Shown: in pieces, positions 53,750-64,000 of the stretch
Layout: every line of letters begins with the position of its first letter
Position numbering within the stretch: the stretch's first letter is position 1
Assembly (NCBI GenBank): GCA_030059665.1
Contig: JANVYR010000002.1
Location: forward strand, 257,441-321,440
Direction of reading: 5' to 3'
From: Candidatus Calditenuis fumarioli
Lineage (GTDB): Archaea; Thermoproteota; Nitrososphaeria_A; Caldarchaeales; Calditenuaceae
Length of the DNA stretch: 64,000 bases
Translations under genes and position numbers: made by a program
The notes under the pieces: generated by a model
Told to the model about the DNA's origin: nothing
The model's input: the letters and a program-made list of their open reading frames with translations, nothing else
Database searches by the model: none

Positions 53750-53887
53750 GTCGGCGTCTTCCAACGATGCCGCAAAACTCCATCGCTCCGTGACGGGTGC
53801 CCCTCGCCTGGCGCGGAGAACCGGTAGCCTGGTCCCGATAACGTTTTCTAAGGCCGAGTCGGAGAGCGATCGGCGCCCTTGAAGGCG

Positions 53888-54556
53888 ATGCTCCTGAGGG
53901 TCCGCGGAAGGGTGCAGCGCGTGGGATACAGGAGGTACGTCCTGGACAGGGCGCAGGAGCTCGGCGTCAGCGGTTACGTGGAGAACCTCGAGGACGGCTC
54001 GGTTAGGGTTTTCGTCCAGGCAGAGGACGAGGAGGCCCTGGAGCAGTTCCTGAGGGCCCTGAGGGAGCCGCCGCCCCCGGCCCTCGTCAGATCCGTCGAG
54101 GAGAGGCCGGCCAGGCCCAACCGGAAGCTCAAAACCTTCAGGATAAAGTACGGCAGGCTTGCGGACGAGCTGCAGGAGGGGTTCGGCGCTATGCAGGCGG
54201 TCTTCATGAGGTACTGGGACGAGTTCCGCGACTACAGGAGCGAGTTCCGCGAGTACAGGGAGGAGTTCAGGGAGTTCTCCCGGAGGACCGACGAGAACTT
54301 CAGGCAGATCCTCGAGAGGTACGGCGAGATATCCGCGAAGCTGACCGAGATCTCCGAGCGGCTGACGAGGCTGATGGAGGCCTTTGCGGAGGAGACGAAG
54401 AGGAGCAGGGAGAACTTCGAGGCGCTGATGAGGGAGTCGGCGGAGACCCGGCAGAGGCTCTCGACCGCCCTCGAGCTGCTGAGGCTCACCGTAGAGAAGC
54501 TCGGCATCAGGACTCAGGGTTCCTCGAGCTTGGGGACCGAGCGGGAAGCGACCTGA
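53888..54556 (+). CDS. Acylphosphatase-like domain fused to C-terminal heptad-repeat coiled coil
   Basis: N-terminal LRVRGRVQRVGYRRYV...GYVENLEDGSV acylphosphatase fold; EFRDYRS-EFREYRE-EFREFSR tandem heptads. Confidence 0.6.
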   Translation: MLLRVRGRVQRVGYRRYVLDRAQELGVSGYVENLEDGSVRVFVQAEDEEALEQFLRALREPPPPALVRSVEERPARPNRKLKTFRIKYGRLADELQEGFGAMQAVFMRYWDEFRDYRSEFREYREEFREFSRRTDENFRQILERYGEISAKLTEISERLTRLMEAFAEETKRSRENFEALMRESAETRQRLSTALELLRLTVEKLGIRTQGSSSLGTEREAT

Positions 54557-54720: not shown

Positions 54721-54956
54721 CACCGGGGCACGCCCACCACCCCACCAGTCGACGTCGGCCGCGGTTATTTGGCTTTACCCGTCCTGGATGTGGTCCAGTT
54801 AACTCCCACGAACCCTTTGCTGGTCCGGCCCGGGTCAGATGCACCGCATTCGATGCATGGTCCGCTATCGCAACGAACGATCAACACGTCTGCACATCAC
54901 GAAACATGATGTTATACCATCACCATATTATGGAAACTGCCAGAAGGTGAAATACA

Positions 54957-55030
54957 TGGGCCCGGTGGGATTCGAACCCACGACCTCCCGGTTATCAGCC
55001 GGGCGCTCCGCCAGGCTGAGCTACGGGCCC
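54957..55030 (-). tRNA. tRNA-Ile (anticodon GAU), no intron, CCA not encoded
   Basis: Reverse complement folds as GGGCCCG-TAGCTCAGCCTGGCGGAGCG-CCCGG CTGATAA CCGGG-AGGTC-GTGGGTTCGAATCCCAC-CGGGCCC-A. Confidence 0.9.
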
Positions 55031-55194
55031 AACCAAGGTTACGCCAATCGCGTCGTTAATTTAGCTTACTAGGGAAGTCGGCGTTACTGAAGCGATGGAT
55101 GCTAATTGACCCACCGTACACACCCGATAGCTGGGCTCGACGGACTCCGTAATGACCGAGAGCCTTTTGTCCTCCGGAGGATGAGAGCATCAGG

Positions 55195-55586: not shown

Positions 55587-56618
55587 TCAGAGGTCCAGCC
55601 AGAGGCCCACGCCCTCGCGCTCCGCCTTCCGCAGGACCAGCTCGCCCGTGGCCACGTCCAGTATGGACAGACCCGTCGAGTCGTAGACCGTGATCTCGGC
55701 GTCCGAGGTCCTCCCGGGCTTCTTACCCGCCACCACCTCGCCGATCTCGCCCCTCACGTCGGAGAGGCTGATGATCCCCTGTCGGAGGGGGACGTTGATC
55801 TCGCCGCTGTGGGAGGCCTGCTCGAGGTCGTCGACGAATATCGTCGCTGATTTGAGGATCGCGGGGTCCAGCTCCTGCTTCCCCGGTGCATCGGCGCCGA
55901 TAGCGTTGATGTGCGTTCCAGGAGAGATCCAGTCCCTCATCACTACCGGTGACCTCGAAGGGGTTGTGGTGCACACGACGTCCGCCCCTTTCACGCACTC
56001 CTCGATGTTCGGGACGGGTCTGATCTCGACGCCCAGGCTGCGGGCCATCTCCTCCGCGAATTTCCGTGCGACCTCGGGCTTCCTGTCGTAGACCCGGATC
56101 TCCCTCAGCTCCCTGAGCACCTCGACCATCGCCATGGCCTGCGTCCTCGCCTGCGTTCCTGCGCCGACGATGCCGACGACGGCCGAACCCTTCCTCGCGA
56201 GGTACTTCGTTGCGACACCGCTCCCCGCACCGGTCCTCATGGCCGTGAGCCAGGTGGCACCCATCACGCAGAGCGGCCTCCCGTCGGGCGGGTTTACCAG
56301 AACCAAGAGAGCCATCACCGTGGGAAGCCCGTACCTCTCTGGGTTCAGCGGATGCGAGTTGACGACCTTCACGCCCGCCACCTCAAGCGACTCGATATAC
56401 GAAGGCATGACCCTGAGATCGCCGTCATACTTGGTGAAGTAGAGGTAGCTCTTCGGTGGCATCTGGACCCTGCTCAGCCCCTTCTCCCGGTAGGCGGCCT
56501 CGACGGCCTCTATCGCCTCCCTCATCGTGAGCAGCTCCCTGACTTCGTCGTCCCTGAGGAAGAGGACCCTCACGGAGGTCCATCGGACTCTGACCGTATA
56601 AGCTGTGCGGCGGGTCAA
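55587..56618 (-). CDS. Ornithine cyclodeaminase / mu-crystallin family protein
   Basis: Rossmann GIVGAGTQAR and family-wide motifs; true start probably 15-16 codons downstream of the ORF start. Confidence 0.8.
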   Translation of the reverse strand: MTRRTAYTVRVRWTSVRVLFLRDDEVRELLTMREAIEAVEAAYREKGLSRVQMPPKSYLYFTKYDGDLRVMPSYIESLEVAGVKVVNSHPLNPERYGLPTVMALLVLVNPPDGRPLCVMGATWLTAMRTGAGSGVATKYLARKGSAVVGIVGAGTQARTQAMAMVEVLRELREIRVYDRKPEVARKFAEEMARSLGVEIRPVPNIEECVKGADVVCTTTPSRSPVVMRDWISPGTHINAIGADAPGKQELDPAILKSATIFVDDLEQASHSGEINVPLRQGIISLSDVRGEIGEVVAGKKPGRTSDAEITVYDSTGLSILDVATGELVLRKAEREGVGLWLDL

Positions 56619-56666
56619 TACGTGAGCGAGCAGTCGACCTTCAAAGGTCTTCCGGCCCGGAGGAAC

Positions 56667-56894
56667 TCAATCGCCCTCGGGCCTCGTGTAGTTGAAGCGA
56701 TCCTCGAGCAGGTTGATGACCTGTTTCATCACACCCCTTGACAACTCTCGATCACAGTGAACGGGCAGCGTCACCTTCTCGCCCGTTGATCTGCCCAGCG
56801 TGAGGTGCGATCCCTTCTGCCGCTCTTTTTTGAAACAGAGTTTGTGAAGTCTTTTGGCAACATCTCTTGCCGACAGATTCGGCAATCTGCTCAT
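56667..56894 (-). CDS. hicA: HicA-family toxin (mRNA interferase)
   Basis: KRLHKLCFKKERQKGSHLTL...TLPVHCDRELSRGVMKQV matches YcfA/HicA pattern. Confidence 0.7.
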   Translation of the reverse strand: MSRLPNLSARDVAKRLHKLCFKKERQKGSHLTLGRSTGEKVTLPVHCDRELSRGVMKQVINLLEDRFNYTRPEGD

Positions 56895-56897
56895 TTC

Positions 56898-57635
56898 TCA
56901 ATTTCCGGTCTCCAGGTGGAGTTCAATCGCCTCCTCAGCGTTCCTCATCGCCTCCTCTGCCGTGAGTCCCTGGGTGAAGCAACCGGGAAGGCTGGGAACG
57001 ACGGCTGAAACCCAGCGATCGCCGCGCACCTTGAACAGGACAACTTCCCTCCCCTTGACCTCCCGAACTTCGTAGTGCTCCGTCTCCGGGTCCATCAACA
57101 CCCTGAGCTTCGTCAGTTCCTCAACGGTCACTTCGACTCGATTCTCAAATCTGTAAGGGATCAAAATAGGATGCCTCATGGGGAGCTCAGCGATTGTGAC
57201 GTTCTGTCCCCTCAGGCGGCTCTTTAGACCGTAAACGTGCTGAAGAAGCTCCTCTAGCGGCTTCCCACCGAACTCCACGACGACGTTCTGAAGTATTCTG
57301 ACCTGCCCTGCGTTCCTTTCGAAGAACGCCTTGAAGGAATCCAGCACCTCTACGCCAGAGTCCGCGATGCGAGGTGGGAGTTCGATGTAACCCCTCAGTA
57401 CGAGCGCGTTCAGGTCACGTGCGAGGCTCGGCGAATACGGACCATGCTTTGCCTTGACGTACTGGTGATGAAAGCACTCGACTCTCTCAATTATGCCCTC
57501 CCTTTCAGCTAAGAAGACGAGCTTCTGCAGTTTGGTGAAGCCCGTTGACCAGCCCGCCTCGCGAAGGAGCCAAAGCATCTTCAGGAGCAGTAGCCTATCG
57601 ATGCACTCCTCCCGGGAGCCGCGACGGCGATGCAT
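56898..57635 (-). CDS. Panacea (DUF4065) domain fused to HicB-like antitoxin domain
   Basis: N-terminal TKLQKLVFLAEREG...KHGPYSP (Panacea pattern) and C-terminal AVVPSLPGCFTQGLTAEEAMRNAEEAIELHLE (HicB/UPF0150 pattern); 4-nt gap to hicA. Confidence 0.55.
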   Translation of the reverse strand: MHRRRGSREECIDRLLLLKMLWLLREAGWSTGFTKLQKLVFLAEREGIIERVECFHHQYVKAKHGPYSPSLARDLNALVLRGYIELPPRIADSGVEVLDSFKAFFERNAGQVRILQNVVVEFGGKPLEELLQHVYGLKSRLRGQNVTIAELPMRHPILIPYRFENRVEVTVEELTKLRVLMDPETEHYEVREVKGREVVLFKVRGDRWVSAVVPSLPGCFTQGLTAEEAMRNAEEAIELHLETGN

Positions 57636-57872
57636 GACCGAGTTGCCGTTCAGCAGAGTTGCAGATCACATAAAATAGTTTAAGGGACTACGTTTGTCCA
57701 GGGTTCAGCCGCTCTCGTGGGTGGCGTCGCTGCGCCCTCAGACCCTTTAAGTGCAGTAAAACCACCGGGCTCTGGGTGCTGGAGGTCCACGAGTACGCGT
57801 TCGGCTTAGGCGAGCTTTGGAAATGCTGTCCGCCCCCGCATAGGATTAAATTGTCATTGTGGACGCTAAACG

Positions 57873-57994
57873 CGGGGTCCGGTCATAGGGCAGGGGCCAC
57901 ACCCGGACTCATTCCGAACCCGGAAGTTAAGCCCTGCCCGCACGGCGAGTAGTGGGGTGGGCGACCACCCGCGAAAGCCGTGTGCTGGACCCCC
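57873..57994 (+). rRNA. rrf: 5S ribosomal RNA
   Basis: CCCGGACTCATTCCGAACCCGGAAGTTAAGCC loop C/helix III signature; terminal helix GGGGTCCGG/CTGGACCCC; followed by CCCCTTTT terminator; AT-rich box (attaaat) about 25 nt upstream. Confidence 0.9.
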
Positions 57995-58653
57995 TTTTCG
58001 CGCTCATTTTTGCGCCGACAGGGCGCGACCTTTCCGACCCCCGAGTTCGAGGTCCGAGTTCGAGGACAGATCGCGCTATCTGCGAGCTAAAGATAAAAAA
58101 CAAAAAATAGATTTTGGGGAGAGGTTGCGTTCGCTTCTCCCGTCTTCTGCGCCATCCCGCTTCACCGACGGTTGCCCCGCTTCGCCAGCCACCTCTTGCG
58201 AGCCCTTCCAGACCTGTCCCTCAGGCAGGGCACACCCGGATCCCTGTCGCCCGGTGGGGTCCTGGCCGGGCGAGCCTGGTCCTACGGCACATCATCGGAG
58301 GAAGGTTCATTAGCGCCCTCTCCCACATCTCCCTGGCCCTGCCCGGGCTCCGGGGAGGGTTCTGGGGAAGGGATGGAGAGAAAGGTACCCACTAACACGC
58401 CATGCAATCCCCAGCAACGCAGTAATGGTATAGGTTCTGCGCAACGAGCATGAGGTGAAAAATTATTGTGATGATACGATAGTAGACTAGTTCGGGAACA
58501 AGAATAGACCTCTCTTAGAAAGTCCTCTAAACACTACCATTTACCTTCTCTCCTGCATGCATGAGAGTGAGTCTCGTTCACCGTAACCGTCCTATGTTGG
58601 AAGGGATAAATATACCCCTAGAGATGCTATGAACAGCGGGTCAGTGGTCTGCA

Positions 58654-59349
58654 ATGATTCCAGTAATAAAGGTATTGGTAAATAATGTTGTCATAGGTAA
58701 TGTCATCGCTGATGACTTCTTTAACAAATATGGAAATTGCGATGGGCATAATATCGTCGGTTTAGTAGCTGAAGCTTACCTCGTGAAAAAGCTGAGAAGC
58801 ACGGGCTATGAAGTGATGCTAGTGTTGAGTCACAATGTCGAAATAAGGAGCATTAAGCGACATGGTTTTTCTTACGATTGTGTAGGTGAGTATGGTGAAG
58901 TCTTGGAAAAGATGCCTGCTGAGTTAAAGGCTGTAGTCGATGAGATGTGCGAGAGAGGGGTTGATATCAGGATAGAGAATGATGGTGATGTGCCGGTGTA
59001 CCTAGAGGATAGAATGCTGTTTAAAACTAGTTTCAAAAGAACGCTCTTAAAAATCATAGCTGCGCACGGAGACAGATATCTCTCACCTCTAATAATATTT
59101 AATTCGGAATTCGAGCCTTTCCTGACGGCTCTTAGCTACAAATTGGTCCTCATGCTAGAATATGGGGCTAATATCCCCATAAAGAGATTACCTCTCAGCA
59201 GAGTTGAAAACCTTCTTGATGATATCGAGAGTATACTTGCGGAGAAAGGTCTTAAGCTTGAAAGTGATTACTGTGACGGTTTGAAAATCTCTAATGAGAG
59301 CGAGTTAATCGAAGACCTTCGTGGATTATGGAGAGTCTTTGAGGGATGA
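58654..59349 (+). CDS. Hypothetical protein on low-GC island
   Basis: 231-aa ORF, about 40% GC, no recognisable motifs. Confidence 0.4.
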   Translation: MIPVIKVLVNNVVIGNVIADDFFNKYGNCDGHNIVGLVAEAYLVKKLRSTGYEVMLVLSHNVEIRSIKRHGFSYDCVGEYGEVLEKMPAELKAVVDEMCERGVDIRIENDGDVPVYLEDRMLFKTSFKRTLLKIIAAHGDRYLSPLIIFNSEFEPFLTALSYKLVLMLEYGANIPIKRLPLSRVENLLDDIESILAEKGLKLESDYCDGLKISNESELIEDLRGLWRVFEG

Positions 59350-60309
59350 AGACCGTTTTCGAATAGGAGCGTGTCCCAGGAATTCCATTATGGTCTTCCT
59401 TATCCTTATCAGCATTTTACTGCGTGTGCTACCAGACTTGCTATTATCACTGATGGCACTGTCAACTAGGTATTACACCCCTTTTCCAAATATGTTCAGG
59501 AGTGAGTTGTAAGTCAGAGCTATAGCACTTACTAGCTCTTCTATGCTCTTCAACGTCTTACCGTTAAAGTTATTGTAGAATTATCTTAGTTGCGTCCTTA
59601 CAACTTCCTGAACCACCTCCCCATTCTGTATCTGTTGCCGAGGTTCTCGTTTACTTATTCTAATCCCATCTCATTCAAAGCCCATGGATACCACGCCCCT
59701 TTATCAATTACTGCCAACGGCCTGTTCTCGCAAATCTCGAGGGTTGTCATCAGAACCTCAGAGCGTTCAGGATCGATTTACCTCTAGAGGCGCAAATAGC
59801 CAAAATCGCGTCGGAATCCACGTCTATTGCAGACCATATGAAGCATCTGTGTCCGCTCGAGCACATCACGGTCACGTCAGCGGCCATAATTCTCCTGGAC
59901 TTCCTTAAAGGATTGAACAGCATTGATGTCCTGTGAACCCTTATCCTGACTCTCCCATAGCTGCATTGACCAGGGAATATCCCTGAGAAATGCCGCTCAG
60001 GCTTAGCCTTGCTATGTATAGGGTGACTGCGCAGACCTTATCGAAGGGATGGTAGTTATAGAACCTAACAGGGAAGACAACCTCTCGATAAGACAATCGA
60101 ATAAATGCACGAAGGATTTAGGATGAACAACACCATAAGCGGTTCTTTGAAAGGATCAAGCAAAAGTTGACAGTACTTATGTCAGGAATTTTTAACTCAT
60201 TTTCAATCTTGAAATATTGAACGGAGTAGCGAGGACAGTTTCCGGATCGATCACGAACGTGACGATAAGAAGAATAAGAATTATAATCCTGAAGAGAGTG
60301 GGATGAACG

Positions 60310-61311
60310 ATGAGGGTAGATCTCGGATTCTCTCTCCCCGTAGGGCAGTTGAGGGTCGGAGAACTCGTGCATGCAGCAAGGATTGCGGAATCAGCGGGAA
60401 TTAGCTCTATCTGGCTGCACGAAAACCCAGCTTACGGGGACAGTCTGATAGCATGCCACGCTATTCTATCGTCCACAACCTCAATCAAGGTTTGCACGGG
60501 AGCAGTAAGCGTGGTGACTAGACACCCTGTTATGCTGGCAGCAAGTGCAGCGACTTTACAAAACGAGAGCAACGGTCGGTTCGTTCTGGGTGTGTCCTTG
60601 GGTGGATTCCCATGGCTACCCCTCATCGGATATTCAATCCATCCCTTGTCTGAGTCCAAACCGCTGGTGAGGATTTTCGAAGCAATTTCTATTATAAGAG
60701 ATCTGCATGAGAACGGAATAACAAATCGCAAAGGGCGATTCTACAACGTGAATGGTTTCAGAATAGTAGTTAAGCCATATGTGAAGGTACCAATTTACGT
60801 AGCAAGCATGGGGCCAAGGATTTTGAGGAAGGCGCCAATGATCGCAGATGGTGTGATAACATCGCCAGGCGTAATGACCGTTAAATCCGTTGAGGAGTTG
60901 CTGAAAGCCGTCAAGAGCGGTGAGGCTATGTGCAATAGGGCCATCGACAAGGCGGCCTATGTGCTCAGCTCGGTCGCTAAAGACCGCGCTGAAGCGTATA
61001 AATCGGTTAAGAGGGACCCATTCTTCATTTATCAGCTTTCGGAGGTCGTCTCAGAGGAATCGCTTTTGGAGTGTGGTGTGGGGGTTGAGAGGCTGCCAGA
61101 TATAAGGAATGCGTGGAGGAACAGGGACCTGTTGAGGGCCTCTGAACTGATTACGGACGAGATGGTCCATCATTTGACGGCCACGGGGAAGCCTGAGGAC
61201 GTCATGAACCGGCTTGAGGAGTATTGGTCTACCGGTCACGATAGGCTGATCGCGGCAGCGGTAGGGGACTGGAGGTCGCTCATAGATGTCATCGGCACGC
61301 TTAACCAGTGA
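60310..61311 (+). CDS. LLM-class flavin/F420-dependent oxidoreductase (luciferase-like)
   Basis: TIM-barrel luciferase-like pattern (SIWLHENP, GVSLGGFPW, VASMGPRIL). Confidence 0.8.
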   Translation: MRVDLGFSLPVGQLRVGELVHAARIAESAGISSIWLHENPAYGDSLIACHAILSSTTSIKVCTGAVSVVTRHPVMLAASAATLQNESNGRFVLGVSLGGFPWLPLIGYSIHPLSESKPLVRIFEAISIIRDLHENGITNRKGRFYNVNGFRIVVKPYVKVPIYVASMGPRILRKAPMIADGVITSPGVMTVKSVEELLKAVKSGEAMCNRAIDKAAYVLSSVAKDRAEAYKSVKRDPFFIYQLSEVVSEESLLECGVGVERLPDIRNAWRNRDLLRASELITDEMVHHLTATGKPEDVMNRLEEYWSTGHDRLIAAAVGDWRSLIDVIGTLNQ

Positions 61312-61918
61312 AAAACCCATCAACGCACTGATCGTCACGGTAGCCGTAGCTTACATCCTGTGGTACTTCGCATTCATGATCGAGTTCTCGAGTTTCTGGA
61401 CTCGACTGGCGATAAGTTCAACCGTCCTGCTCTTCATGTGCGCAGCGCTTGCCTGGAATGGGTCGTTTCCGGGAAAGGTGGGGCTCAATTGGAGAGCCTT
61501 GATCATAGGTATCTGCTGGGGCCTCGGGATGTACGTCGCTACACTCATGAGCTACAAGGCTGTGGAGAACTACGTCAGGGATGATGCGGGAGCCGTGTAT
61601 GCTCTCATGGGAGACGTTGACGTAGGGTTGGTGGTCCTCACACTGCTGTACGTCAGTTTCACCGAGGAGCTCTACTGGCGTGGCTTCGTCTTCGAGACAT
61701 TGAGTTGCGGTTTGGGGGTTACTAAGGCGCTCCTCCTCACCACACTATTCTACTCCACGATCCATATCTGGACGTCAAATCTACCATTGATGCTCGTCGC
61801 CGCAGTCGCTGGCCTCCTGTGGGGCGTCCTATACAGACTGACTCGATCAGTCTTTTCTGCGTGGGCGTCCCATGCTTTGTGGGACCTGATGGTTTTCGTC
61901 TTTCTCCCATTGCGCTGA
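61286..61918 (+). CDS. CPBP-family intramembrane metalloprotease (CAAX protease/Abi)
   Basis: EELYWRGF and HALWD motifs in polytopic membrane protein. Confidence 0.8.
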   Translation: MSSARLTSEKPINALIVTVAVAYILWYFAFMIEFSSFWTRLAISSTVLLFMCAALAWNGSFPGKVGLNWRALIIGICWGLGMYVATLMSYKAVENYVRDDAGAVYALMGDVDVGLVVLTLLYVSFTEELYWRGFVFETLSCGLGVTKALLLTTLFYSTIHIWTSNLPLMLVAAVAGLLWGVLYRLTRSVFSAWASHALWDLMVFVFLPLR

Positions 61919-62138
61919 AGTCTTCCAACTGTTCGAATTATTCTCTGCAATTAGGGGCACCATGATAGCGTGCTGATCGGATCTGCGCGGGGTATGTGGA
62001 TGAAATCAACGCCCGATTTCGTTCGTGAAACCTTAGAGCTCTATGCGATAGGCGAAAAGACGCGATTGAGGTTCATAGATCGCATGTGGTTTGCTGTGCC
62101 GGAATATGAGGAGATACTGATAGCCCCAACAAACACGC

Positions 62139-63014
62139 TCAACCCAAAAGAATTCCAATTATCAGTGCGGCTCCGAAGAACATCGTTAGGCCCGCGACCC
62201 TAGCATCTGAGTCCACAGGAAGTGACCTCCTGAAATGCGACAGCATCTTGACAGCCATCGGGACTGTCACCAGAATCGCCAATGACGTGGGTGGCAGAAG
62301 CCTGAAAGCCACCTGGATCAGTACTATCAGGTACGAGACAGCTAGCAGGGCAGCGAAGATGACGAAGCCCCACCTGAGGCCAAGAACCGTGGCGACTGTC
62401 CTGATGTTGGCGCTCCTATCGTACTCGATGTCCCTGAGGTTGTTGGCTAAAAGGACGGCCCCGACTAGGCATCCCACGGGAATGGAGGTCAGCAGAACGC
62501 CCGCCTCCAACCGACCCGTCAAAACCAAATAGGTTCCTCCGACCATCAGAGGTCCCCAAGTAGCTATGACGCTCGCTTCACCGAAGGCCCTGTACTTCAG
62601 AGTCAGGGGAGGTGCCGTATAGAAAACGCTCAAGAAGGTCCCAGCCAGCGCGAACGCGATGACCAGAGGCCCCCTCAGCAGGCTTAGGTAGGTTGCTATC
62701 CCGAGAGACACAGTATACAGCGAGGCTGTGACCAAGGCGTAGGTCTTTTTCGTCGTCACCCCATAGGCTAAAGGATGAGGCCTGTACCTCGTCGTAGGGG
62801 CGCCTGCGACATCAACTCTGAAGTTGACGTCGTAGATGTCATTGGCTAGGTTCGTCGCTGCATGCAACACGACTAGCCCAGCAAGGACTAGAACGAAGAG
62901 GACGGCATCGAAGGAACCGGACTTAAAGGCTAGCACGCCACCAAGAGAGGACGAAATCAGCGTCATCACGAAGGACCAGGGTCTGCTTGCAAGAAACCAT
63001 TCGGCGACCCTCAT
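62139..63014 (-). CDS. UbiA-family prenyltransferase (MenA-like)
   Basis: NDIYDVNFD aspartate-rich motif, 8-9 TM helices; start at internal Met. Confidence 0.8.
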   Translation of the reverse strand: MRVAEWFLASRPWSFVMTLISSSLGGVLAFKSGSFDAVLFVLVLAGLVVLHAATNLANDIYDVNFRVDVAGAPTTRYRPHPLAYGVTTKKTYALVTASLYTVSLGIATYLSLLRGPLVIAFALAGTFLSVFYTAPPLTLKYRAFGEASVIATWGPLMVGGTYLVLTGRLEAGVLLTSIPVGCLVGAVLLANNLRDIEYDRSANIRTVATVLGLRWGFVIFAALLAVSYLIVLIQVAFRLLPPTSLAILVTVPMAVKMLSHFRRSLPVDSDARVAGLTMFFGAALIIGILLG

Positions 63015-63509
63015 ATGATTCCCCTTTGATGATCGTACAGCCCAAATTAAAAACCTCCAAGGGGGTTTTCCAATCACCAGTCAGTGTTTTTGTGGCTTAA
63101 TTCTCTGATTCTGGAAACTATTGACGAAGTGTTGGCAAGGTCATCCACGACGCCTAGGCCTTTCGGACTGATCAGGGGGTCGGAACGGGGAATTTGTCCC
63201 GAACCATCCCGGCAAGGCGCTTAAGTCGCTGCTGCACGTGTTGTTGTAGACGAGGGCGTTCGTACCGGGTCCACGGACCTGGACGCACGGGATGCATAAC
63301 CTCGTTTGCTCTGACCTCCTCCCCGCCCTAGAGGACGGGGATTCCCTTTGGAGCAGGATGTTCTGGTCCACATCCCCAGCTTTGTAGCCGTCGGTAGTCG
63401 TACATTTGGTTGGTTCTATTGGCTCCTCCCCCTACAATGCCAGGCCAGCGTCAACGTTTAACCCGTTCACCGTCTGCTTTTATCACGACAATGCGGATGT
63501 TGTATCGCC

Positions 63510-64000
63510 TTGGGCGGAAAGTTTGGCGTCCTGAAGGGGGCGTGCCTCGCTGGTGCGCTTATCCTGATCCTCGCGGCAGCGTTGCTGGCCGTCCCCGTGC
63601 CTGCCTCAGCCATAGTCTACGCTCAGGGCGTTCCAGGCAACCCTCCTCCGAACGCAATTCCGAACAAGAGGTTCACACTCATCGCTTCTGAGACCGACGT
63701 GGTAATAGACGAGGGGGTTGTTTTCAAGGCATTCGTCTTCAACGGCACCTCCCCTGGTCCCCTGATAGTCGTTGAGGAGGGGGACGTCGTGGAGATCGTC
63801 GTCAAGAACGCCGGCCGATACACGCACGGTTTATCGATTCACGCCGCTAACACGCAGACCTCGAAGTTCGTCGGCAACATACCGCCTGGCGGAGAGGGGA
63901 GGCTGGTGTTCAAGGCAGACTTTCAGGGCGTCTACATGTACCACTGCGCCCCGGGAGGACATGGGATATTGACCCACACGATGGCCGGCATGTACGGGAT
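63510..64000 (+). CDS. Copper-containing nitrite reductase / multicopper oxidase N-terminal part (continues beyond window)
   Basis: Signal peptide (LILILAAALLAVPVPASA), HGLSIHAA and type-1 Cu site YMYHCAPGGHGILTHTMAGMYG; read in frame 0, not listed in ORF track. Confidence 0.6.
   Translation, partial: MGGKFGVLKGACLAGALILILAAALLAVPVPASAIVYAQGVPGNPPPNAIPNKRFTLIASETDVVIDEGVVFKAFVFNGTSPGPLIVVEEGDVVEIVVKNAGRYTHGLSIHAANTQTSKFVGNIPPGGEGRLVFKADFQGVYMYHCAPGGHGILTHTMAGMYG

What the first reader, a model, noticed from the sequence alone, without database searches (positions are those of the whole stretch)
56667..57635. HicA toxin paired with a Panacea(DUF4065)-HicB fusion antitoxin
The 75-aa downstream ORF has the HicA pattern. 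The 245-aa upstream ORF combines an N-terminal Panacea-type domain (TKLQKLVFLAERE…HGPYSP) with a C-terminal HicB/UPF0150-type domain (LPGCFTQGLTAEEAMRNAEEAIELHLE). Panacea is a promiscuous antitoxin domain usually found on its own. A Panacea-HicB fusion next to HicA is an unusual architecture and suggests a two-module antitoxin. The gene order (antitoxin first, 4-nt spacing) also differs from canonical hicAB.
Basis: partly seen in the sequence, partly recalled or inferred. Interest (0 to 1): 0.6.

Follow-up and report, generated by a model that had tools for sequence, protein, structure and literature searches.

The report
Archaeal HicA toxin with Panacea–HicB antitoxin
This is a real two-gene toxin–antitoxin module from a thermophilic archaeon whose antitoxin joins a Panacea scaffold to a HicB toxin-binding fold, a domain combination I could not find described, although this copy looks partly decayed.

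Summary
Both ORFs exist as described, on the minus strand and 3 nt apart. The 75-aa ORF is a HicA RNase toxin: it scores above Pfam's cut-off and keeps the GSH catalytic histidine. The last about 60 residues of the 245-aa ORF are a HicB fold, supported by Pfam above its cut-off and by Foldseek matches to solved HicB structures. The N-terminal 150 residues score below Pfam's Panacea cut-off. However, the family profile aligns to threshold-passing Panacea proteins at hhalign probability 99.8%, and a high-confidence AlphaFold model shows seven helices and two strands as published for Panacea. In every related locus with enough DNA, the fused gene is followed by hicA. This held down to 37% identity, in Calditenuaceae, Thermoprotei and metagenome contigs.

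Most relatives of the scaffold instead end in a RelB/YefM-like tail. In the six such loci examined, a ParE/RelE-like gene follows. The HicB fold therefore looks like a swapped-in neutralising cassette. This fits the published model of multidomain Panacea antitoxins, but this combination is absent from the Panacea and HicA surveys I read.

This particular copy looks damaged. A 1-nt insertion removes HicA's conserved tail. The closest relatives carry a 5'-truncated antitoxin and a His30Arg toxin. I rate it a new variant of a known kind, of moderate interest.

The parts
56898..57635 (-). Fused antitoxin gene (245 codons plus a TGA stop at 56898-56900). Architecture: Panacea scaffold, then linker helix, then HicB fold.
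   Evidence: ORF listing. Fifteen full-length homologues at 53-64% identity. AlphaFold2 model built on a 115-sequence alignment: pLDDT 96.4, pTM 0.92.
57192..57629 (-). Panacea-type (DUF4065/SocA-like) domain, residues about 3-148. It contains seven helices and a beta-hairpin, and includes a winged-helix-like segment at residues about 69-100.
   Evidence: Pfam SocA_Panacea scores only 13.2 bits against a cut-off of 25.7. hhalign to six threshold-passing Panacea proteins gives probability 99.8%, E 4.7e-28. 38 of 66 profile hits are Pfam Panacea. The top Foldseek PDB hit is the DarG C-terminal domain, 7yk3_B, probability 0.99. PADLOC PDC-M19A matches at E 9e-8.
57084..57191 (-). Extended linker plus a conserved helix (residues 149-184, ...VTVEELTKLRVLMDPE). 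It is shared with relatives that lack HicB. The module-swap junction lies right after 'L.DPE'.
   Evidence: The N-terminal profile matches stand-alone proteins of about 215 aa across query positions 1-193. An alignment of fusion and non-fusion relatives shows divergence after DPE/DPD. The tail profile of non-fusion relatives weakly matches only RelB/YefM-type antitoxins in the PDB.
56901..57083 (-). HicB-type toxin-binding module, residues 185-245. It has strands 185-193, 196-203, 209-212 and 220-223, then helix 226-244. The protein ends after the helix, so the canonical beta4 strand and the C-terminal DNA-binding domain of HicB are absent.
   Evidence: Pfam HicB_lk_antitox scores 35.1 bits against a cut-off of 27. 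Foldseek hits to 6g1n, 6g1c, 4p7d and 6g26 have probability 0.93-1.0 (0.98-1.0 for all but one chain), rmsd 1.1-2.6 A over 46-52 columns, 31-35% identity. Translation; secondary structure.
56667..56894 (-). hicA toxin gene, 75 codons plus stop. The dsRBD core is complete, but the C-terminus is truncated by a frameshift relative to the 90-97-aa family norm.
   Evidence: Pfam HicA_toxin scores 38.7 bits against a cut-off of 27, covering residues 9-61 and profile positions 1-54 of 58.
56805..56807 (-). Codon CAC for His30 in the GSH motif, the presumed catalytic histidine of HicA. It is CGC (Arg) in the closest relatives L001-L004.
   Evidence: Sequence, DNA alignment and the HicA listing. The histidine is kept in all other orthologues.
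56674..56676 (.). Frameshift site. The + strand has a CCC run (GGG on the coding strand) where the 98.8%-identical relatives have CC. The extra base gives ...PEGD* instead of ...PEAIEFLRTGRPLKIDCPLTY*.
   Evidence: DNA alignment, column 1461. Translations.
56615..56674 (-). Out-of-frame but still open remnant of the conserved HicA tail (AIEFLRAGRPLKVDCSLTY*). Its stop overlaps the TTG start of the downstream ornithine cyclodeaminase-like gene.
   Evidence: Translation. The family HicA HMM also detects it at E 7e-4.
57670..57685 (-). Candidate archaeal BRE/TATA element (CCTTAAACTATTTTAT), 35-50 nt upstream of the antitoxin start codon. The matching motif AAAC(C)TATTT(T)A occurs at the same position in relatives.
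   Evidence: Upstream sequences of 33 related loci compared by eye. This is an inference and was not tested.
57387..57388 (.). Synteny break relative to the closest relatives. Their homology (98.8%) stops here, inside codon 83 of the antitoxin. Upstream they carry purS-purQ-purL-purF instead.
   Evidence: blastn of L002 against the window, gene maps and DNA alignment.

Best explanation
This is a type II toxin-antitoxin operon of the HicA family, arranged antitoxin first.

The toxin. HicA is a small dsRBD-fold RNase that uses His30 in its GSH motif.

The antitoxin. It has three parts:
- a Panacea-type scaffold (residues about 3-148);
- a conserved linker helix (residues 149-184);
- a C-terminal HicB fold (residues 185-245).

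Proposed neutralisation. I infer that the HicB fold is the neutralising element. Its beta-sheet and helix would bind HicA and cover the active site, as in solved HicAB complexes.

Role of the Panacea domain. It occupies the place that a DNA-binding/dimerisation domain holds in other HicBs. I infer that it provides oligomerisation, possibly operator binding through its winged-helix-like part, and/or the sensory role proposed for Panacea in multidomain PanA antitoxins.

Evolutionary origin. The architecture looks like a cassette swap. The same scaffold in most relatives ends in a RelB/YefM-like tail. In the six such loci examined, it is followed by a ParE/RelE-like gene. In this subfamily the tail after the 'L.DPE' junction was replaced by a HicB fold, retargeting the antitoxin to HicA.

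What is shown and what is inferred:
- Shown: domain identities, fold, co-conservation and the swap junction.
- Inferred: which domain neutralises, what Panacea does, and whether this copy is still active.
For: Domain identities:
- HicA and HicB both score above Pfam cut-offs.
- The HicB fold superposes on solved HicB N-terminal domains at 1.1-2.6 A.
- Panacea homology comes from profile-profile comparison (probability 99.8%) and from 38 of 66 relatives hitting PF13274.
- The AlphaFold2 model (pLDDT 96.4) has seven helices and two strands, as published for Panacea (PMC10440598).

Co-conservation:
- In all 31 fusion-bearing loci with downstream DNA, including ones at only 37-40% identity, hicA follows directly, usually overlapping or within a few nt.
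- HicA's histidine is kept in all of them except the truncated-antitoxin relatives.

Cassette swap:
- Only 6 of 148 cluster representatives of the scaffold family carry the HicB module.
- Six non-fusion relatives were examined. One downstream gene scores as Pfam ParE_toxin at 24.4 bits against a cut-off of 23. Two others gave no Pfam hit and look RelE/ParE-like only by eye. The other three downstream genes were not scanned.
- Fusion and non-fusion relatives diverge at one junction.

Published precedents:
- Panacea fused to Phd-C, PAD1 or MqsA-ZBD neutralises through the fused module (PMC10440598).
- HicB contacts HicA mainly through its beta-sheet (PMC10865869).
Against: - Nothing here tests binding, toxicity or neutralisation. 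No complex model could be computed.
- The window protein itself fails Pfam's Panacea cut-off (13.2 against 25.7 bits).
- The HicB module is minimal. Pfam covers only 35 residues, and the model ends after helix alpha1, without the canonical beta4.
- This copy shows decay. HicA lost its conserved tail to a frameshift.
- Between the window and its 98.8%-identical relatives, the antitoxin has 7 non-synonymous and 3 synonymous changes. The neighbouring gene has 4 and 21 (Fisher p = 0.004).
- Those relatives carry a 5'-truncated antitoxin and a His30Arg toxin.
Confidence: 0.72

Rival explanations
1. In this genome the locus is a decaying remnant, not a working toxin-antitoxin module. The HicA frameshift and relaxed constraint would mean that neither gene currently does anything. 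This is compatible with the family-level mechanism above.
For: - A 1-nt insertion removes the conserved 19-aa HicA tail.
- The antitoxin has omega of about 0.7 against about 0.06 for the adjacent gene (Fisher p = 0.004).
- The nearest relatives have a truncated antitoxin plus His30Arg HicA.
- Other loci show hicA with an in-frame stop (L014, L021) or a truncation (L037).
Against: - The whole dsRBD core and His30 of the window's HicA are intact.
- The antitoxin ORF is full length, with every family-invariant residue aligned.
- The shifted tail frame is still open. The indel is therefore very recent or an assembly error in a homopolymer run.
- The high omega may reflect decay only in the relatives' lineage.
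Confidence: 0.4
2. The N-terminal domain acts simply as a winged-helix DNA-binding and dimerisation domain for autoregulation. The protein would then be a HicB with an N-terminal DNA-binding domain, like Gerdes's class 5/6 with Phd/YefM, with no Panacea-specific sensing role.
For: - Several relatives hit winged-helix families weakly (HTH_45, PadR, CggR_N, F-93_WHD) over residues about 65-105.
- The PDB profile search finds Sso10a, PadR and MepR weakly.
- A sequence conserved in the closer relatives (CTGATCA(A/G)CGG-like; a perfect 12-bp palindrome only in L005) lies between the TATA-like box and the start codon.
- Other hicBA classes do have N-terminal DNA-binding domains.
Against: - All winged-helix hits are below their cut-offs, and Panacea is the commonest hit (38 of 66).
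- The best structural match is a toxin-binding domain, the DarG C-terminal domain, not a transcription factor.
- The candidate operator is degenerate in the window itself.
Confidence: 0.3
3. The Panacea domain neutralises HicA directly, as stand-alone PanA proteins do. The HicB-like segment would be an accessory or stabilising element.
For: Stand-alone Panacea neutralises toxins directly in published cases (PMC10440598).
Against: - The HicB module appears only in the subfamily paired with HicA. The six examined scaffold relatives with a RelB/YefM-like tail are each followed by a ParE/RelE-like gene instead. Toxin specificity therefore tracks the C-terminal cassette, not the Panacea core.
- The nearest relatives kept the HicB module while losing the Panacea N-terminus.
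Confidence: 0.08

Closest known systems
Multidomain PanA antitoxins (Panacea fused to Phd-C, PAD1 or the MqsA zinc-binding domain; Ernits et al. 2023, PMC10440598; Kurata et al. 2022, PMC8832971)
   Same: A Panacea scaffold is linearly joined to a module borrowed from the cognate antitoxin of the partner toxin. The locus has two genes. The neutralising role is assigned to the fused module, with Panacea as an accessory or sensor.
   Different: - The fused module here is a HicB fold and the toxin is HicA. Neither paper nor its held supplements mention this pairing. The 2023 paper states that HicBA escaped its prediction.
- This Panacea branch is divergent, falls below Pfam's cut-off, and its fusion-bearing members were found only in thermophilic archaea and metagenome contigs.
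hicBA classes 5 and 6 of Gerdes 2024 (PMC10865869): HicB with an N-terminal Phd/YefM DNA-binding domain and a C-terminal HicB fold
   Same: The gene order is antitoxin first, often with overlap. The HicB fold is at the C-terminus, and a different domain at the N-terminus replaces the usual C-terminal HTH/RHH. Class 6 HicA also has a C-terminal extension.
   Different: - The N-terminal domain here is Panacea-type, not Phd/YefM.
- The HicA extension here is a short Cys-Pro tail of about 19 aa, not the three-helix 'Shared Domain' of 55-60 aa.
hicBA class 8 of Gerdes 2024 (Thermococcus litoralis WP_004069337.1 and WP_004069339.1)
   Same: It is archaeal. It has a long antitoxin with a C-terminal HicB fold and an unassigned N-terminal domain, and a HicA of about 95 aa with extra C-terminal structure.
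   Different: - The class 8 antitoxin has 342 aa and three domains.
- It shows no homology to this family (hhalign probability 0.07%) and has no Panacea hit in Pfam.
Canonical HicAB (E. coli K-12; Burkholderia pseudomallei 6G26/6G1N; Yersinia pestis HicB3 4P7D)
   Same: The toxin family, the catalytic histidine motif and the antitoxin's toxin-binding fold are the same (31-35% identity, rmsd 1.1-2.6 A).
   Different: - Canonical HicB has the fold at its N-terminus, followed by beta4 and a C-terminal RHH or HTH DNA-binding domain. The gene order is usually hicA first.
- Here the fold is C-terminal, ends after alpha1, and is preceded by an extra hairpin strand.
DarG C-terminal (DarT-binding) domain, PDB 7YK3 chain B
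   Same: It is the best solved-structure match to the N-terminal domain (Foldseek probability 0.99, 144 columns). Weak sequence matches to DarG models also occur. It too is a toxin-antitoxin antitoxin domain.
   Different: - Identity is only 14%, and TM-score is 0.35-0.44.
- DarG carries a macrodomain, and its toxin is an ADP-ribosyltransferase.
Sister subfamily found here: the same scaffold ending in a RelB/YefM-like tail, followed by ParE/RelE-like genes (L009, L041, L043, L045-L047)
   Same: They are homologous over residues 1-184, including the linker helix. The arrangement is the same: antitoxin first, with overlap.
   Different: - The C-terminus is a tail of about 25 aa, ...GR.LTHEEVFG, instead of a HicB fold.
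- The partner is a ParE/RelE-like protein of 107-130 aa carrying a CxxC...CxxC insert. Only the L009 partner passes Pfam ParE_toxin.

Membership tests
HicA toxin (PF07927) | Sequence match to the family model above the curated cut-off | tested here: met
   38.7 bits against a cut-off of 27, covering residues 9-61 and profile positions 1-54 of 58.
HicA toxin (PF07927) | Conserved catalytic histidine (G-S-H motif) | tested here: met
   His30 in KGSHLTL. It is Arg in relatives L001-L004.
HicA toxin (PF07927) | Full-length product as in orthologues | tested here: not met
   The product is 75 aa against 90-97 aa in orthologues. A 1-nt insertion at 56674-56676 removes the conserved tail. The dsRBD core itself is complete.
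HicA toxin (PF07927) | RNase activity and growth inhibition | not testable with these tools
   This needs expression and RNA-cleavage assays.
HicB antitoxin (PF15919 / partial RNase H-like fold) | Sequence match above the curated cut-off | tested here: met
   35.1 bits against a cut-off of 27, but only over residues 209-243. All 15 orthologues hit the model at E <= 1, best E 6.7e-10.
HicB antitoxin (PF15919 / partial RNase H-like fold) | Three-stranded sheet plus helix fold that superposes on solved HicB | tested here: met
   Foldseek hits to 6g1n, 6g1c, 4p7d and 6g26 at probability 0.93-1.0, rmsd 1.1-2.6 A over 46-52 columns. The model's pLDDT is about 97-98 in this part.
HicB antitoxin (PF15919 / partial RNase H-like fold) | Complete fold including beta4 after helix alpha1 | tested here: not met
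   The protein ends 1-2 residues after the helix (226-244 of 245). An extra strand, 185-193, precedes the fold. Whether it replaces beta4 could not be checked because no coordinates were available.
HicB antitoxin (PF15919 / partial RNase H-like fold) | C-terminal RHH or HTH DNA-binding domain (canonical classes 3 and 4) | tested here: not met
   No such domain is present. A Panacea-type domain lies N-terminal instead.
HicB antitoxin (PF15919 / partial RNase H-like fold) | Gene adjacent to hicA and co-conserved with it | tested here: met
   All 31 fusion-bearing loci with downstream DNA have hicA directly after the antitoxin gene.
Panacea / PanA (PF13274, DUF4065, SocA-like) | Pfam match above the gathering cut-off | tested here: not met
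   13.2 bits against a cut-off of 25.7 (E 0.18) for the window protein. The best orthologue reaches E 2.3e-4, and close relatives score 14-20 bits.
Panacea / PanA (PF13274, DUF4065, SocA-like) | Homology to bona fide members by profile methods | tested here: met
   - The N-terminal profile retrieves 710 proteins.
- 38 of 66 sampled proteins hit PF13274.
- Six proteins pass the cut-off at 27.3-31 bits.
- Those six align to the family profile at probability 99.8%, E 4.7e-28.
- Caveat: the six were themselves found with this profile.
Panacea / PanA (PF13274, DUF4065, SocA-like) | Compact architecture of helices alpha1-alpha7 with strands beta1-beta2 (PMC10440598) | tested here: met
   The model has helices 7-26, 33-49, 69-80, 92-99, 102-107, 109-122 and 127-136, and strands 60-62 and 65-67. 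Direct superposition on a published PanA model was not possible.
Panacea / PanA (PF13274, DUF4065, SocA-like) | Located in a conserved two-gene toxin-antitoxin-like locus | tested here: met
Type II toxin-antitoxin system | Direct protein-protein neutralisation, a labile antitoxin, and autoregulation | not testable with these tools
   No complex prediction or experiment was available. Only a candidate promoter and operator were seen.
Gerdes 2024 HicA context classes 7 and 8 (long HicB) | Class 7: two DUF1902 domains, 216-233 aa. Class 8: three-domain antitoxin of 331-356 aa | tested here: not met
   - The example class 7 protein hits DUF1902, while the window protein does not.
- The class 8 antitoxin is unrelated (hhalign probability 0.07%).
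- Family motifs are absent from the held part of Table S1.

The most novel reading that the evidence does not exclude
This is a previously undescribed class of HicA system, confined so far to thermophilic archaea. A Panacea scaffold exchanged its RelB/YefM-like tail for a HicB fold at a fixed junction. The partner HicA acquired a co-conserved C-terminal tail (EAIEFLKTGKPxKxxCP) that docks on the Panacea domain. Panacea would then act as a trigger-sensing switch, for example for virus infection, that releases the RNase.
Probability: 0.2. Interest if true: 0.6.

Novelty: new variant of a known kind. Interest (0 to 1): 0.42.

Why it matters
It links two well-studied parts of the toxin-antitoxin field that published surveys left unconnected. 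One is the Panacea network, whose authors note that HicBA escaped their prediction. The other is the 14 HicA context classes, none of which has Panacea.

The family provides a natural experiment. One scaffold carries either a RelB/YefM-like tail or a HicB fold, joined at the same point, and the partner toxin changes with it. This supports the idea that Panacea is a reusable chassis and that toxin specificity lies in a swappable end cassette. It also offers defined chimeras for testing what Panacea itself does.

The locus and its near relatives also show three different routes of toxin-antitoxin decay: loss of the tail by frameshift, an active-site His-to-Arg change, and 5' truncation of the antitoxin.

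The advance is incremental. The parts and the principle are both already known.

Tried and rejected
- AlphaFold2 with only the 15 close homologues gave an unusable N-terminal model (pLDDT 49). It was rescued with a 115-sequence alignment.
- The BFVD viral search gave only one weakly named Panacea hit, at rank 24.
- PDB sequence searches with the family profiles gave only weak HicB and winged-helix matches.
- Exact-sequence look-ups of both window proteins found nothing, so the source genome is not in that index.
- I suspected a relationship to Gerdes's class 8, which has a long archaeal HicB and a 95-aa HicA, and rejected it.
- NCBIfam gave no HicA or HicB assignment, only a weak DarG hit.
- The sigma-70 promoter and intrinsic-terminator scan is not appropriate for an archaeon, and I ignored its result.
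- A literature search for 'YwgA', the name JGI gives some homologues, found nothing relevant. I did not verify how that COG relates to Panacea.
- My coordinate mapping for dN/dS of genes beyond the ornithine cyclodeaminase-like gene was thrown off by indels. I discarded those values.
- I decided against spending a large protein search on the HicA tail subfamily.
Full report
**1. What is in the sequence**

Two minus-strand ORFs lie head to tail.
- The 245-codon ORF is at 56898-57635.
- The 75-codon ORF is at 56667-56894.
- They sit between an ornithine cyclodeaminase-like gene (55587-56618, minus strand) and a 5S rRNA gene (57875-57993, plus strand).
- No second copy of either gene exists in the window.

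**2. The toxin**

- The 75-aa product scores 38.7 bits on Pfam HicA_toxin, against a cut-off of 27. The match covers almost the whole model.
- It has the G-S-H motif, with His30.
- It is shorter than its orthologues. The 98.8%-identical relatives encode 92 aa (L001-L004; identity measured for L002), and more distant ones encode 90-97 aa.
- The DNA alignment shows one extra base in a short G/C run at 56674-56676. This turns ...PEAIEFLRTGRPLKIDCPLTY* into ...PEGD*.
- The displaced frame is still open and reads AIEFLRAGRPLKVDCSLTY*. The change is therefore either very recent or an assembly error.
- The lost tail is conserved across the family. It has a helix-like EA(I/V)xFL segment, then basic residues, then a Cys-Pro in most members.
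- The dsRBD core is untouched.

**3. The C-terminal part of the antitoxin**

- Residues 209-243 score 35.1 bits on HicB_lk_antitox, against a cut-off of 27.
- With a deep alignment, AlphaFold2 gave a very confident model (pLDDT 96.4, pTM 0.92).
- Residues 185-245 form four strands followed by a long helix.
- Foldseek places this part on solved HicB N-terminal domains: B. pseudomallei 6G1N, 6G1C and 6G26, and Y. pestis 4P7D. Probability is 0.93-1.0 (0.98-1.0 for all but one chain), rmsd 1.1-2.6 A and identity 31-35%.
- The module is minimal. The chain ends right after the helix, so it lacks the beta4 strand and the C-terminal RHH/HTH domain of canonical HicB.

**4. The N-terminal part of the antitoxin**

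Pfam alone does not support Panacea for this protein (13.2 bits against a cut-off of 25.7). Four further lines of evidence do.
- All 15 full-length homologues give weak Panacea hits.
- A profile of residues 1-184, searched against 1.84 billion representatives, found 710 proteins. Of 66 sampled, 38 hit SocA_Panacea, with a best E-value of 1.5e-10.
- Six members that pass Pfam's cut-off align to the family profile at hhalign probability 99.8%, E 4.7e-28, over 148 columns. The caveat is that my own profile selected these six.
- The model has seven helices and a two-stranded hairpin in residues 7-136. This is the architecture published for Panacea (PMC10440598).

Other matches are consistent with this.
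- The best solved-structure match is the DarT-binding C-terminal domain of DarG (7YK3_B, probability 0.99). Weak DarG sequence hits agree.
- PADLOC's candidate-system protein PDC-M19A also matches, at E 9e-8.
- Part of the domain (residues about 65-105) looks like a winged helix. Sub-threshold HTH_45, PadR, CggR_N and Sso10a matches occur there.

**5. Co-conservation**

- Scans of genome and metagenome collections returned 43 related loci.
- I built HMMs for the scaffold, the HicB module and HicA, and scanned all six-frame ORFs with them.
- 33 related loci carry the full-length fusion (scaffold and HicB module in one ORF), besides L001-L004, whose copy is 5'-truncated. In all 31 that have downstream DNA, hicA follows directly. 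The genes usually overlap or lie within a few nt of each other. The other two end at the contig edge.
- This holds down to 37-40% identity. Examples are a Thermoprotei MAG (L007), a Calditenuaceae genome (L006) and a 39%-identical cluster representative whose hicA had not been annotated (L010).

**6. Where the architecture comes from**

- Only 6 of 148 cluster representatives of the scaffold family carry the HicB module.
- About 110 are proteins of 195-235 aa without it.
- Many of these end in ...ETLxILxDPxxxxxLxxAxxDxKxGRxLTHEEVFG (19 match a strict version of the tail).
- A profile of this tail finds, weakly, only RelB3 (3BPQ), an antitoxin peptide (6L8G) and RelB (9G12) in the PDB.
- In six such loci the downstream gene is a 107-130-aa protein that looks RelE/ParE-like. 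One of them scores above the Pfam ParE_toxin cut-off, two others gave no Pfam hit, and three were not scanned.
- Aligned together, fusion and non-fusion relatives share everything up to a conserved 'L.DPE', at window residues about 181-184. They diverge immediately after it.
- The simplest reading is a cassette swap on a common Panacea chassis. This step is an inference.

**7. Mechanism**

- In published HicAB complexes and models, HicB binds HicA mainly through the beta-sheet of its partial RNase H fold, against HicA helix alpha2 (PMC10865869).
- In published multidomain PanA antitoxins, the fused cognate module neutralises the toxin. These modules are Phd-C, PAD1 and the MqsA zinc-binding domain. 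[quoted passage not shown]
- By analogy, residues 185-245 should neutralise HicA.
- Toxin partner tracks the C-terminal cassette rather than the Panacea core. This argues against direct neutralisation by Panacea here.
- The role of Panacea in this protein remains open. Dimerisation, operator binding through the winged-helix part, and sensing are all possible.
- A conserved BRE/TATA-like box lies 35-50 nt upstream of the start codon. Relatives carry a conserved CTGATCA(A/G)CGG-like motif (a perfect palindrome only in L005) between that box and the start. These are leads for autoregulation, not evidence.

**8. State of this copy**

- Besides the HicA frameshift, the closest relatives (L001-L004) show a synteny break inside antitoxin codon 83, at window 57387/57388.
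- Their gene is cut to 149 codons and abuts purS. Their HicA reads G-S-R instead of G-S-H.
- Between the window and L002, the shared antitoxin region has 7 non-synonymous and 3 synonymous differences. The neighbouring gene has 4 and 21 (omega about 0.7 against 0.06; Fisher p = 0.004).
- Other loci carry hicA with an internal stop (L014, L021) or a truncation (L037).
- The module is therefore prone to decay, and the window copy may be inactive. Its antitoxin is nevertheless intact and its toxin core is complete.

**9. Comparison with the literature**

- The Panacea papers (PMC8832971, PMC10440598) and their held supplements contain no HicA or HicB partner. The second states that HicBA escaped its network.
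- Gerdes's survey of HicA contexts (PMC10865869) defines 14 classes.
- The nearest are classes 5 and 6, which are hicBA with an N-terminal Phd/YefM domain, and classes 7 and 8, which have long HicBs.
- Class 7 is a DUF1902 pair. The class 8 antitoxin is unrelated to this family (hhalign probability 0.07%).
- The family's signature motifs are absent from the held part of that paper's table. That file was cut when stored, so absence is not proven.
- JGI's automatic annotation of one homologue already lists both 'HicB family nuclease' and 'YwgA'. Annotation pipelines therefore see the architecture even though I found no description of it.

**10. Verdict**

- It is a new domain combination within two known frameworks, so I rate it a new variant of a known kind.
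- Interest is moderate. The natural cassette swap makes the role of Panacea experimentally tractable.
- The principle is already published, nothing is functionally tested, and this particular copy looks damaged.

Noticed in passing
window 57388-64000, compared with L001-L004: Upstream of the antitoxin breakpoint the window has a lone 5S rRNA gene (57875-57993, +) and then a low-GC stretch (47-51% against about 65% elsewhere, 58-62 kb). The 98.8%-identical relatives instead have purS-purQ-purL-purF. A rearrangement or insertion therefore distinguishes these strains, and its edge lies inside the antitoxin gene.
   Followed up: partly
window 58654-59349 (+) and 60310-61311 (+): Inside the low-GC stretch, a 231-aa ORF has no Pfam match. 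A 333-aa ORF is a luciferase-like monooxygenase (145 bits). The composition suggests foreign DNA.
   Followed up: partly
L041 1842-2165, L043 3105-3431, L045 1069-1395, L047 1051-1377, L046 772-1164, L009 3655-3981: The toxins paired with the non-HicB relatives of the scaffold are RelE/ParE-like proteins of 107-130 aa carrying a CxxC...CxxC insert, which may be a zinc ribbon. Only the L009 protein reaches the Pfam ParE_toxin cut-off. The others have no Pfam hit.
   Followed up: partly
L014 3250-3546, L021 1036-1332, L037 3262-3426: hicA is interrupted by an in-frame stop at about codon 54 in two metagenome loci and truncated in a third, while the fused antitoxin stays intact. Toxin loss therefore seems recurrent in this family.
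   Followed up: no
Upstream regions of L005 and L012-L021; window 57640-57665: A motif conserved in these relatives, CTGATCA(A/G)CGG(A)C, lies between the TATA-like box and the antitoxin start codon. It is a perfect 12-bp palindrome, CGCTGATCAGCG, in L005. It is degenerate in the window (GCTGAACGGC). It could be an operator or a conserved 5' leader.
   Followed up: no
L007 3078-3736 (-): In the Thermoprotei MAG, a pair that by eye looks like a VapC (PIN-like) toxin and an AbrB-type antitoxin (not scanned against Pfam) lies directly upstream of the Panacea-HicB/hicA pair. This would be an example of toxin-antitoxin clustering.
   Followed up: no
L008 3776-5073, L048 2075-3221: Bacterial relatives of the N-terminal domain, one from Armatimonadota and one from a metagenome, are about 200-245 aa with an acidic insert. 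Each is followed by an overlapping protein of 186-210 aa that has hydrophobic segments and no Pfam hit. These may be Panacea-membrane-toxin pairs like those published.
   Followed up: no
window 53879-54556 (+): An acylphosphatase domain (residues 6-89, 79 bits) is fused to a C-terminal region of about 135 aa that is rich in repeated E/R/F heptad-like sequence (EFRDYRSEFREYREEFREF...). This is an unusual extension for this enzyme. The gene calls for relatives give 211-222 aa.
   Followed up: no
window 54956-55031 (-): A tRNA-Ile (GAT) gene lies 1.6 kb from the module. I looked for no integration signature.
   Followed up: no
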